Below are positions 1-12,611 of a stretch of DNA of 14,163 bases, piece after piece. The notes under the pieces are model-generated. The model saw only the letters and a program-made list of their open reading frames with translations. It was not told the DNA's origin and searched no databases. How positions within the stretch are numbered: the stretch's first letter is position 1; each line of letters opens with the position of its first letter. The DNA is from a virus (Duplodnaviria; Heunggongvirae; Uroviricota; Caudoviricetes), in the IMG/VR virus record IMGVR_UViG_3300026224_000024; one strand, given 5' to 3'. The translations under genes were made by a program, and so were the position numbers.

Positions 1-71
1 GTGCTTTTGCCGTTACGCACCACCCCGTCAGTAGCTGAACAGGAGGGACAGCTGATAGAAACAGAAGCCAC
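1..71 (-). CDS. insA: IS1 InsA, N-terminal fragment (partial, runs off the window)
   Basis: Minus-strand translation from the GTG at 71-69 gives MASVSISCPSCSATDGVVRNGKS, the recalled InsA N-terminus with its zinc-finger CPSC motif. Confidence 0.7.
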   Translation of the reverse strand, partial: MASVSISCPSCSATDGVVRNGKS

Positions 72-126
72 TGGAGCACCTCAAAAACACCATCATACAC
101 TAAATCAGTAAGTTGGCAGCATCACC
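1..126 (-). mobile_element. IS1 left end (terminal inverted repeat plus first 71 nt of insA); element continues beyond the window's left edge
   Basis: The reverse complement of 1-126 reads GGTGATGCTGCCAACTTACTGATTTAGTGTATGATGGTG...CCAGTGGCTTCTGTTTCTATCAGC, which I recognise as the IS1 terminal inverted repeat and the start of insA. Similarity stops abruptly at 126/127 where the AT-rich target begins. Confidence 0.85.
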
Positions 127-394
127 CAATAACAGTATACTTTTTCATCACAATATCATCTTTCGAAGCATGAGAAATAATCTGGTTTGATAAAGTATAC
201 TTAAAAAATTTAGCAATATCTGGAGCGATAGGAGCTTTAATGATTTTAAAATCGAATTTATCAACAACTCTTGCGGTTCTACTCATACCCGCTTTAAGAT
301 GTCTAGTAATGAAATACAACGATATTTTCGCCGCATCATCATCCTTAAGTTGCTCAGCATACTCTAATAATTCTTCAAGCTTTAACATTTTCAT
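122..394 (-). CDS. Hypothetical soluble protein, distal gene of the AT-rich cassette; 3' end interrupted by IS1 (last codon and stop supplied by the IS1 end)
   Basis: 90-aa ORF starting at the ATG 394-392, which overlaps the upstream gene's TGA stop (ATGA). The stop TGA (124-122) and the last Gly codon lie inside the IS1 inverted repeat, so the native C-terminus is unknown. The locus is visibly AT-rich. Confidence 0.55.
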   Translation of the reverse strand: MKMLKLEELLEYAEQLKDDDAAKISLYFITRHLKAGMSRTARVVDKFDFKIIKAPIAPDIAKFFKYTLSNQIISHASKDDIVMKKYTVIG

Positions 395-1005
395 TCCTTA
401 TGGGATTCAGCATAAAAAAGTTTTGGGCCCACGTCCTCAACATCAAGAAGATCATCTTCCTCCAAATACTTTGATTTAGTCAAAACCATACCAGTGCGTT
501 TTTTGTCGCTTTCTAAATCCAAATATGTAACTTGATATAAAGTATAATTAATACTTATTGTAGGATTTATAAGTATCATGCTTGAATTAATATATATTAA
601 AGCCGTTACCGTTAACAATATTGCTATTGGTATAACATTAGTTAAAGTGGATAGATCCTGAAATACAAACGGAATTATATATGTAAAAAGATAGCTTATT
701 GATTCATTGTTTTTATTTTCAATATCTATAACTCTTACAGTTCTACCACTAGTGGCGCATCGACGTTTTATATTTTTTAAAAAAATTGTTAATCCTACAA
801 TACCAAATAATGATAATACACCAATGACACTGACCGCGCCAAAGTATTTAAAGAAAATAGTTAATGATTCAACACTTATACCTTTCCAATTTAAATAGCT
901 TCTATAAGTATACAATTGCACAAAACACATGATAAAGAATAGGGGAAGGTATGACACTATAAATAGCGAAACTCTAGCACCTAAATGTAGTTTATTTACT
1001 CTCAT
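391..1005 (-). CDS. Hypothetical integral membrane protein (about 4 predicted TM helices, ~58-aa hydrophilic acidic C-terminal tail)
   Basis: 204-aa ORF with an ATG start at 1005-1003. Hydrophobic stretches at roughly aa 12-31, 52-76, 103-117 and 123-146. Translationally coupled to the downstream ORF. AT-rich, unlike the rest of the prophage. Confidence 0.6.
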   Translation of the reverse strand: MRVNKLHLGARVSLFIVSYLPLFFIMCFVQLYTYRSYLNWKGISVESLTIFFKYFGAVSVIGVLSLFGIVGLTIFLKNIKRRCATSGRTVRVIDIENKNNESISYLFTYIIPFVFQDLSTLTNVIPIAILLTVTALIYINSSMILINPTISINYTLYQVTYLDLESDKKRTGMVLTKSKYLEEDDLLDVEDVGPKLFYAESHKE

Positions 1006-1267
1006 AACTACCCCACAGCCTACACGTCTAGTATTTTATGTTATTTCGAATAATTATGCATCAGATTACCATCCTACAATTGTGCATAAAACGAGCATTT
1101 TGCTGATTTTTCTGCGGATGCCTGAGACAGACAACCTCAAGCACCCGCAGCAATTCTACTTAACTCTCCTTTTCCCGCAAACCGTTTTTATCCCCATCGG
1201 CAAATCGAATACACCACCAGCGCCACCGCCATCGCAATTCCTACCGTGGTGAATGCCTCAGGCCGGG

Positions 1268-12223: not shown

Positions 12224-12430
12224 ATGACAAAAACTTTGAGATATGACGATGTTAAACCATGTCCGTTTTGTGGTTGTCCATCAGTAACGGTGAAAGACAT
12301 TTCAGGATATTACCGGGCAAAATGCAACGGATGCGAATCCCGAACTGGCTATGGTGGAAGTGAAAAAGAAGCGCTCGAAAGATGGAATAAACGAACCACT
12401 GAAAATATTAATGGAGGCGTTCATGTATAA
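12224..12430 (+). CDS. ralR: Restriction alleviation protein Lar/RalR (anti type I restriction)
   Basis: Start chosen at the ATG 12224; begins MTKTLRYDDVKPCPFCGCPSVTVKDISGYYRAKCNGCESRTGYGGSEKEALERWNKR with a CxxC ... CxxC zinc ribbon. Matches recalled Rac Lar. Confidence 0.8.
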   Translation: MTKTLRYDDVKPCPFCGCPSVTVKDISGYYRAKCNGCESRTGYGGSEKEALERWNKRTTENINGGVHV

Positions 12431-12611
12431 AATTACCGCTACAATTGAAAAGGAAGGTGGCACTCCTACTAACTGGACAAGATATTCAAAATCTAAACTA
12501 ACGAAATCAGAATGCGAAAAAATGCTCTCAGGTAAAAAAGAAGCAGGCGTTTCCAGAGAGCAGAAAGTAAAACTGATAAATTTTAATTGCGAGAAACTTC
12601 AGTCCTCGTGA
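12423..12611 (+). CDS. ydaC: YdaC-like small protein
   Basis: ATG at 12423 with a GGAGG SD, overlapping the ralR 3' end. 62 aa. Position between ralR and xis, as in Rac. Confidence 0.6.
   Translation: MYKITATIEKEGGTPTNWTRYSKSKLTKSECEKMLSGKKEAGVSREQKVKLINFNCEKLQSS

What the first reader, a model, noticed from the sequence alone, without database searches (positions are those of the whole stretch)
1..130. IS1 insertion truncates the distal gene of the AT-rich cassette
Positions 1-126 are the IS1 terminal inverted repeat and the start of insA, on the minus strand. The junction at 126/127 falls inside the last codons of the 122-394 ORF, so its final Gly codon and TGA stop come from IS1. The native C-terminus is therefore lost. 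The length of the intact protein is unknown, and the module may be inactivated in this strain, for example if the intact system was toxic or costly.
Basis: partly seen in the sequence, partly recalled or inferred. Interest (0 to 1): 0.6.

Follow-up and report, generated by a model that had tools for sequence, protein, structure and literature searches.

The report
IS1 insertion breaks Kiwa defence gene kwaB
A common jumping gene (IS1) has landed inside kwaB, the DNA-binding half of a prophage-borne two-gene anti-phage system called Kiwa, leaving only its first quarter; this is an ordinary gene knock-out, not a new kind of system.

Summary
Window 1-126 (minus strand) matches the left end of E. 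coli K-12 IS1A at 126 of 126 bases. The junction lies exactly at 126/127. The "AT-rich cassette" is the known Kiwa defence operon. kwaA (391-1005, minus strand) is intact and 204/204 identical to the usual protein. The 122-394 ORF holds the first 87 residues of the 340-residue KwaB, then a Gly codon (two of its three bases from IS1) and a TGA from IS1. So 253 residues (74%) are cut off, including the whole DUF4868 DNA-binding domain.

All 156 complete E. coli genomes that carry this operon have it uninterrupted. A separate public contig holds the matching right junction: the IS1 right end, then CTGTTATTG, then the rest of kwaB. Joining the two halves and removing one copy of that 9-bp repeat rebuilds intact kwaB with no mismatches. 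This is the signature of a simple IS1 insertion with a 9-bp target duplication.

Published experiments show that deleting either Kiwa gene abolishes defence, so this copy is predicted to be non-functional. Nothing supports selection against a toxic or costly system. The likely source is Escherichia sp. TW09231, in a Rac-like prophage. Interest is low.

The parts
1..126 (-). Left end of insertion sequence IS1 (IS1 positions 1-126). It covers the left inverted repeat (about window 97-126), the IS1 promoter region, and the GTG start plus the first 23 codons of insA (window 71 down to 1). The window stops inside the element.
   Evidence: 126/126 identity to K-12 IS1A. The insA N-terminus translates as VASVSISCPSCSATDGVVRNGKS. 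A promoter-like site CTGCCA-16-TATGAT lies at 119..92 on the minus strand, where the IS1 promoter is described as overlapping the left repeat (PMC12428005).
127..135 (.). The 9-bp IS1 target site: CAATAACAG on the + strand, CTGTTATTG in the kwaB sense. This is the left-junction copy of the target-site duplication.
   Evidence: The same 9 bases follow the IS1 right end (...GGAGTCATTACC|CTGTTATTG|ATGATGAT...) in contig L008. Uninterrupted kwaB has them only once. Removing one copy rebuilds intact kwaB with 0/1023 mismatches.
122..394 (-). Truncated kwaB (kwaB'). It encodes KwaB residues 1-87 (RefSeq numbering; two more residues if the ATG overlapping the kwaA stop is used), then Gly and TGA supplied mostly by IS1.
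   Evidence: PADLOC KwaB model PDLC00223, E = 4.2e-34, matching model positions 1-87 of 339 only. The 87 native residues are identical to the intact 340-aa KwaB of E. coli CEA224S. The product equals WP_000915484.1.
391..1005 (-). kwaA, the membrane component of Kiwa. It is intact at 204 aa, and its stop overlaps the first ATG of kwaB (ATGA).
   Evidence: PADLOC KwaA PDLC00212, E = 1.3e-101, full length. It matches the solved KwaA chain 9mrg_A at E = 3e-6. It is 204/204 identical to WP_001265627.1 from an uninterrupted operon.
1118..1160 (-). Context: upstream of kwaA lies a copy of the hokD-type promoter (-10 TAGAAT) and the first ~35 nt of its leader. A second, diverged copy lies downstream of kwaB in uninterrupted loci, so the Kiwa cassette is bracketed by a ~40-nt direct repeat.
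   Evidence: BLAST of L001, L008 and the window against a Kiwa-less Rac-like prophage (L010) shows L010 1501-1542 matching on both sides of the cassette; alignment. The promoter role is inferred, not tested.

Best explanation
A 768-bp IS1 element transposed into kwaB, the second gene of a kwaA-kwaB (Kiwa) anti-phage operon. The operon is carried as cargo in the early-right region of a Rac-like prophage integrated next to ttcA. IS1 entered an AT-rich stretch after codon 87 of 340 and duplicated the 9-bp target CTGTTATTG. It lies in the same orientation as kwaB. Its terminal GGTGA completes a Gly codon and supplies an in-frame TGA.

The resulting 88-residue stub lacks the rest of the N-terminal Rossmann-like domain. 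It also lacks the loops that dock onto KwaA and the whole DUF4868 domain that binds phage DNA. KwaA is still intact but has no effector, so this Kiwa copy is predicted to give no defence.

Shown here: the identity of IS1, the exact junction, the identity and intact length of the gene, and the existence of the matching right junction with a 9-bp duplication. Inferred: that the right junction lies in the same genome as this window, and that function is lost. The loss of function is extrapolated from deletion experiments on other Kiwa operons.
For: IS1 identity and junction:
- 126/126 identity to K-12 IS1A, with the breakpoint exactly at 126/127.

Identity of the genes:
- PADLOC KwaA 1.3e-101 and KwaB 4.2e-34 (model positions 1-87 only).
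- RefSeq annotates the uninterrupted neighbours as KwaA family protein and KwaB-like domain protein.
- Intact KwaB has 340 aa, with Pfam PF16162 (KwaB/DUF4868) at residues 130-317, all beyond the break.

Comparison with uninterrupted copies:
- 156 of 5,426 complete E. coli genomes carry the operon. All are colinear at >=99% identity, and none is interrupted.

Right junction and reconstruction:
- L008 reads IS1 end + CTGTTATTG + the rest of kwaB through to its stop.
- Window half + L008 half minus one repeat copy = 1023 nt, with 0 mismatches to intact kwaB.
- One IS1 isoform (the copy in E. coli AR_0011) matches every observed IS1 base at both ends, including a T at IS1 position 127.
- IS1 is 768 bp and makes 8- or 9-bp duplications (PMC12428005).

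Function:
- Deleting either Kiwa gene abolishes defence, and KwaB binds phage DNA through DUF4868 (PMC11785009).

No rescue of the 3' part:
- The frame running from IS1 into it has no start codon before Met100.
- No promoter-like site faces it.
Against: - The window ends inside IS1, so the right junction is not seen in this sequence. L008 comes from a different dataset (IMG metagenome 3300026224). I could not show that it is the same strain.
- Two metagenome scans for the left junction found nothing.
- The deletion experiments used the ECOR8 Kiwa. The solved KwaB chains, which the paper's residue numbering suggests are from O55:H7, are only distantly related to this 340-aa subtype (E = 1.5e-5 over the C-terminal half).
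- No assay of this subtype was found.
Confidence: 0.88

Rival explanations
1. IS1-mediated deletion or rearrangement. In the genome this window comes from, the sequence beyond IS1 is not the rest of kwaB. The 3' part of kwaB, and perhaps the distal prophage, has been deleted, inverted or moved by recombination between IS1 copies.
For: The window, and all five or six public contigs with this junction, stop inside IS1. Adjacency is therefore never observed directly in this lineage. IS1 is multi-copy in most Escherichia genomes, with a median of about 10 places per genome, which gives substrates for such events. IS elements are known to cause deletions and rearrangements (PMC12428005).
Against: The exact complementary junction with the same 9-bp sequence exists (L008). 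Its kwaB remainder is 100% identical to the allele expected from the window's half. Both ends fit one IS1 isoform. A deletion would not leave a target duplication. Even so, the gene would be just as truncated.
Confidence: 0.1
2. Residual or altered function. The broken locus may still act, for example as a split KwaB (an N-terminal stub plus a separately made residue 100-340 fragment), as KwaA working alone, or as a switch restored by precise excision of IS1.
For: Natural Kiwa loci with KwaB split into two genes exist, in 70 of 9,797 loci (PMC11785009). The 241-aa 3' ORF from Met100 is intact in L008. kwaA is undamaged. The 9-bp direct repeats are the substrate for rare precise excision (general knowledge of IS elements).
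Against: Natural splits fall between the Rossmann-like and DUF4868 domains. In the solved 315-aa KwaB that boundary is 185/186, which maps to about residue 207 here by the offset. This break is at residue 87, inside the N-terminal fold. Residues 88-99 would be missing from both pieces. No start codon lies in the IS1-derived frame, no promoter-like site faces the 3' part, and no Shine-Dalgarno sequence is visible before Met100. Deleting kwaB alone abolishes defence.
Confidence: 0.04
3. Adaptive loss. The insertion was selected because intact Kiwa was toxic or costly in this host, or blocked a useful plasmid or phage.
For: Other disrupted alleles of the same kwaB exist in public data. Examples are a frameshift in an A-run (P0002...KKVYCY) and short N-terminal products (P0005, P0008) on megabase-size contigs. 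Kiwa also lowers conjugation efficiency (PMC11785009).
Against: All 156 complete E. coli genomes with this operon keep it colinear. kwaA shows no secondary decay. The Kiwa paper does not mention toxicity or fitness cost; neither word occurs in its text. The homopolymer frameshifts could be sequencing errors. A single insertion cannot separate selection from drift.
Confidence: 0.12
4. Assembly artefact. The IS1 end was wrongly joined to kwaB at a contig edge, and the gene is intact in the real genome.
For: The junction sits at the very edge of the window. The lengths of IS1 retained at contig ends (about 27, 126 and 138 nt) look like k-1 overhangs of the assemblers used.
Against: The same junction was recovered by at least three different assembly pipelines from different read sets (ENA MEGAHIT k141, Logan, IMG isolate). 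The reciprocal junction was recovered independently. A de Bruijn assembler extends into a repeat only along reads that actually bridge the junction.
Confidence: 0.01

Closest known systems
IS1 (IS1A of E. coli K-12; the isoform found in E. coli AR_0011 and many other genomes)
   Same: The terminal 126 bases are identical and the insA start is the same. The 9-bp target duplication and the AT-rich target (28% G+C in the 100 bp next to the junction) fit. Insertional inactivation is IS1's classic effect.
   Different: Nothing differs in kind. Only 126 of 768 bp lie in the window. Just beyond the window (IS1 position 127) the lineage carries T where IS1A has C.
Kiwa anti-phage system (KwaA + KwaB; E. 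coli O55:H7 RM12579, ECOR8/12/49; Zhang, Todeschini et al., PMC11785009)
   Same: The two-gene order kwaA then kwaB is the same, with overlapping stop and start. KwaA is a ~200-aa membrane protein and KwaB carries DUF4868. The operon sits on a prophage, as do many Kiwa operons.
   Different: This is a distant subtype: KwaB has 340 aa rather than 315, and similarity to the solved chains is only E ~1e-5. In this window KwaB is cut after residue 87, so the locus no longer meets the definition of a complete Kiwa system.
Naturally split KwaB loci (70 of 9,797 Kiwa loci; PMC11785009)
   Same: KwaB coding sequence is divided into two pieces.
   Different: Natural fissions separate the two domains and keep both as expressed genes. 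Here the break lies inside the first domain and is caused by a mobile element. It leaves the 3' piece with no start codon before Met100 and no promoter-like site facing it.

Membership tests
IS1 family insertion sequence | Characteristic terminal inverted repeat beginning GGTGATGCTGCCAACTTACTGAT | tested here: met
   Window 126..1 is 126/126 identical to the annotated left end of K-12 IS1A.
IS1 family insertion sequence | insA reading frame starting just inside the left repeat (zinc-finger N-terminus) | tested here: met
   GTG at window 71-69, then ASVSISCPSCSATDGVVRNGKS, the first 23 codons only. The position matches insA1 of K-12.
IS1 family insertion sequence | 768-bp element with insA/insB' joined by a -1 frameshift, and a right inverted repeat | not testable with these tools
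   The window ends at IS1 position 126. A 768-bp isoform that fits all observed bases at both ends exists elsewhere (L009).
IS1 family insertion sequence | 8- or 9-bp direct duplication of the target | tested here: met
   CTGTTATTG is present at the left junction (window 127-135) and after the IS1 right end in L008. It occurs once in uninterrupted kwaB. Caveat: the right junction comes from another dataset.
Kiwa defence system | KwaA: small integral membrane protein of the KwaA family | tested here: met
   PADLOC PDLC00212 at 1.3e-101 over the full length. Solved KwaA 9mrg_A matches at 3e-6. Pfam PF28043 KwaA is precomputed on the identical gene in L003.
Kiwa defence system | KwaB with a DUF4868 (PF16162) DNA-binding domain | tested here: not met
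   The window's ORF matches KwaB model positions 1-87 only and has no Pfam hit. The intact orthologue has PF16162 at residues 130-317. The locus is therefore a Kiwa remnant, not a complete system.
Kiwa defence system | kwaA immediately followed by kwaB in one operon | tested here: met
   The kwaA stop (391-393) overlaps the first ATG of kwaB (394-392). Both are on the minus strand.
Kiwa defence system | Protection against phage or plasmid entry that requires both genes | not testable with these tools
   Only published data on other Kiwa operons are available (PMC11785009).

The most novel reading that the evidence does not exclude
The interrupted locus is not dead. One possibility is that intact KwaA, with or without the 88-residue KwaB stub that keeps part of the KwaA-contacting surface, has a role of its own. 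Another is that the IS1 copy with its 9-bp repeats acts as a rare on/off switch for a prophage-borne defence system through precise excision.
Probability: 0.03. Interest if true: 0.5.

Novelty: already known. Interest (0 to 1): 0.13.

Why it matters
It matters mostly for annotation. The 88-aa product is filed in RefSeq as a "hypothetical protein" (WP_000915484.1), but it is the stub of KwaB. Tools that score defence systems by gene presence could miscount this strain, either as Kiwa-positive through kwaA or as lacking Kiwa altogether. It also gives a clean natural kwaB-null allele with untouched kwaA. That could serve as a control when studying this untested 340-aa Kiwa subtype. It does not change what is known about IS1 or Kiwa.

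Tried and rejected
- Left junction in GTDB species-representative genomes: no hit.
- Left junction in JGI metagenome contigs, with a long and then a short IS1 anchor: no hits. So I could not show both junctions in one sample.
- Exact look-up of the 90-aa form of the ORF (from the first ATG): not on record. The 88-aa form worked.
- Supplementary tables of the Kiwa paper, to see whether this subtype was assayed: none held.
- Rescue of the 3' part of kwaB by a start codon or an outward promoter from IS1: rejected. There is no in-frame start in the 19 IS1-derived codons and no promoter-like site.
- A Shigella origin, guessed from the IS1 and the absence from complete E. coli genomes: dropped once the product matched Escherichia sp. 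TW09231.
- Structure prediction: not run. Only the 88-aa stub may be submitted, and it would add nothing.

Full report

Yes. Reverse-complemented, window 1-126 reads GGTGATGCTGCCAACTTACTGATTTAGTGTATGATGG...GGCAAAAGCAC. It matches the annotated left end of IS1A in E. coli K-12 MG1655 at 126 of 126 positions. The stretch holds:
- the left inverted repeat;
- the region where the IS1 promoter overlaps that repeat. A promoter-like site CTGCCA-16-TATGAT lies at 119..92 on the minus strand, and PMC12428005 describes the promoter there;
- the GVG-type start of insA, here GTG, and its first 23 codons.

The window simply ends inside the element.

Comparison with uninterrupted copies of the neighbouring gene shows native sequence through base 127 and IS1 from base 126 leftwards. 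In the sense of the gene the text is ...ACT GTT ATT G|GG TGA TGC.... The native Asp codon GAT contributes its G. IS1 contributes GG and then TGA.

**2. What is the gene?**

The AT-rich cassette (31% G+C over 127-1117, against 47% for the rest of the window) is the Kiwa anti-phage operon.
- **kwaA.** ORF 391-1005 (minus strand, 204 aa) matches the PADLOC KwaA model at 1.3e-101 over its full length. It matches the solved KwaA chain 9mrg_A at 3e-6.
- **kwaB.** ORF 122-394 matches the PADLOC KwaB model at 4.2e-34, but only over model positions 1-87 of 339.
- **Distribution.** Among complete E. coli genomes, 156 of 5,426 carry the same two genes at 99% identity or more. RefSeq names them KwaA family protein and Kiwa anti-phage protein KwaB-like domain-containing protein.
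- **Intact length.** Intact KwaB has 340 residues. Pfam PF16162 (KwaB/DUF4868) covers residues 130-317.

The window keeps residues 1-87, identical to the intact protein, and loses 253 residues (74%), including the whole domain.

KwaA in the window is 204/204 identical to the protein of uninterrupted operons. There has been no further decay, so the event looks recent.

**3. Where is the other end of IS1?**

It is not in the window. No complete E. coli genome has this junction, and neither does any GTDB species representative.

An exact look-up of the 88-aa product found five contigs, three of which were shown: ENA ERZ27241745, Logan ERR273781 and Logan SRR5487539. A pattern scan added an IMG isolate contig. 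All are 100% identical to the window over up to 10,388 nt, and all break off inside IS1. The lengths of IS1 kept at the contig ends (about 27, 126 and 138 nt) look like assembler k-1 overhangs. The start of the window is therefore probably an assembly break at a repeat.

A scan for the predicted right junction (IS1 right end, 0-12 bases, then the continuation of kwaB) gave one contig, L008, from IMG metagenome 3300026224. It reads ...AAGTTGGAGTCATTACC|CTGTTATTG|ATGATGATATTGAC... and runs on through kwaB to its stop codon and into a hok gene.

CTGTTATTG is the reverse complement of window 127-135 and occurs once in uninterrupted kwaB. Joining the window's 5' half to L008's 3' half, and removing one copy of the 9-mer, gives 1023 nt with no mismatch to intact kwaB of strain CEA224S.

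One 768-bp IS1 isoform, a copy in E. coli AR_0011 with its own 9-bp duplication, matches every IS1 base seen at both junctions. That includes a T at IS1 position 127 in the ENA contig that extends the window. IS1 makes 8- or 9-bp duplications (PMC12428005).

This is the textbook signature of a simple insertion. One caveat remains: L008 is a different dataset. I put about 10% on a deletion or rearrangement in this particular genome. Either way the gene is truncated.

**4. What does it do to the system?**

In the published work on Kiwa (PMC11785009):
- KwaA tetramers in the membrane sense phage-induced disturbance;
- KwaB dimers docked on KwaA bind the entering DNA through DUF4868, blocking replication and late transcription;
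- deleting either gene abolishes defence;
- mutations in KwaB loops around residues 100-103 and 157, or in its DNA-contact residues 134-233, also abolish defence or DNA binding. These numbers refer to the solved 315-aa protein.

All of these elements lie beyond the break here. By the only alignable region, residue 166 of this KwaB corresponds to residue 144 of the solved chain.

The 3' part cannot easily be rescued. The frame entering it from IS1 is open for only 19 codons and has no start. The first in-frame start is Met100. No promoter-like site faces it, and I see no Shine-Dalgarno sequence there. Natural split KwaB genes divide between the two domains, not inside the first.

The best reading is a null Kiwa allele with an orphan kwaA. 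This step is inferred. The experiments were done on other Kiwa operons, the solved KwaB chains are only distantly related to this subtype (E about 1e-5), and I found no assay of this subtype.

**5. Why did it happen?**

The target is AT-rich, at 28% G+C in the adjacent 100 bp. As I recall from the classical literature (not checked here), IS1 favours such DNA.

Nothing supports selection against a toxic or costly system:
- no other complete genome has the operon interrupted;
- the Kiwa paper does not mention toxicity or fitness;
- kwaA is untouched.

A few other disrupted alleles of the same kwaB are on record, mostly homopolymer frameshifts that may be sequencing errors.

**6. Context and source**

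The window is the early region of a Rac-like prophage. It holds intR at the right end, xis, ralR with the RalA sRNA, recT, recE, a repressor-like gene, ydaS/ydaT, replication genes, and DUF1627, Ead/Ea22 and DUF551 genes. Kiwa follows, downstream of the rightward early genes.

In a Kiwa-less relative the prophage sits next to ttcA, and hokD occupies the place of the cassette.

The 88-aa product is WP_000915484.1 of Escherichia sp. TW09231. This is a cryptic clade III water isolate from Michigan (PMC3466228), which explains why the allele is absent from the E. coli collection.

**7. Verdict**

The finding is real and correctly interpreted, but ordinary. A very common insertion sequence has knocked out a known defence gene. 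Its value is in annotation and as a natural kwaB-null control.

Noticed in passing
window 1118-1160 (minus strand); L001 2979-3020 and 4998-5039; L008 1123-1165: The Kiwa cassette is bracketed by a ~40-nt direct repeat (GTAGAAT..GCGGGTGCTTGAGGCTATCTGCCTCAGGCA). In a Kiwa-less Rac-like prophage this sequence occurs once, just upstream of hokD. It looks like the hok promoter (-10) plus the first bases of the hok mRNA leader. So kwaAB may be driven by a duplicated hokD promoter, and the cassette may have entered by recombination at this site.
   Followed up: partly
window 113-141 (+ strand): The best promoter-like match in the first 1.4 kb (TTGGCA-17-TATACT, 10 of 12) spans the junction. Its -35 lies in the IS1 left repeat and its -10 in kwaB. 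It reads outward from IS1, antisense to kwaB' and kwaA. It may be a hybrid promoter created by the insertion. The total number of promoter-like sites is no higher than in shuffled sequence.
   Followed up: no
window 12429-12607 (minus strand) and ORF 12351-12611 (+ strand): Rfam finds a full-length RalA antitoxin sRNA (218 bits; gathering score 170) opposite the ralR toxin gene. This is the type I toxin-antitoxin pair of Rac prophages.
   Followed up: no
proteins P0002, P0005, P0008, on contigs of 4.8-5.2 Mb: Other short N-terminal products of the same kwaB occur in near-complete E. coli chromosomes. One is a +1 frameshift in the A-run just before the IS1 site (...MKKVYCY). They are either independent pseudogenes or homopolymer sequencing errors.
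   Followed up: partly
H94 (NZ_CP029328.1) and H95 (NZ_CP044403.1): In two complete genomes the kwaA-kwaB stretch is 1 and 3 nt shorter than usual, and only KwaB is listed under the match. kwaA may be frameshifted or unannotated there.
   Followed up: no
L002 (E. coli Ecol_745) versus L001 and the window: The same Kiwa cassette (>=99.5% identical) sits in different lambdoid prophage backgrounds. In L002 it is Qin-like, with dicC, ydfA, relB, QueH and a partial ISNCY transposase next to kwaB. In L001 and the window it is Rac-like. The cassette therefore moves between prophages as a unit.
   Followed up: partly
window 1; L003 10262-10399; L004 end; L007 1-27; L008 1-126: The amount of IS1 kept at contig ends (about 27, 126 and 138 nt) tracks the k-mer sizes of the likely assemblers (31, 127, 141). 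The left edge of the window is therefore an assembly break in a repeat, not a biological boundary. The window's right edge coincides exactly with the intR stop codon.
   Followed up: partly
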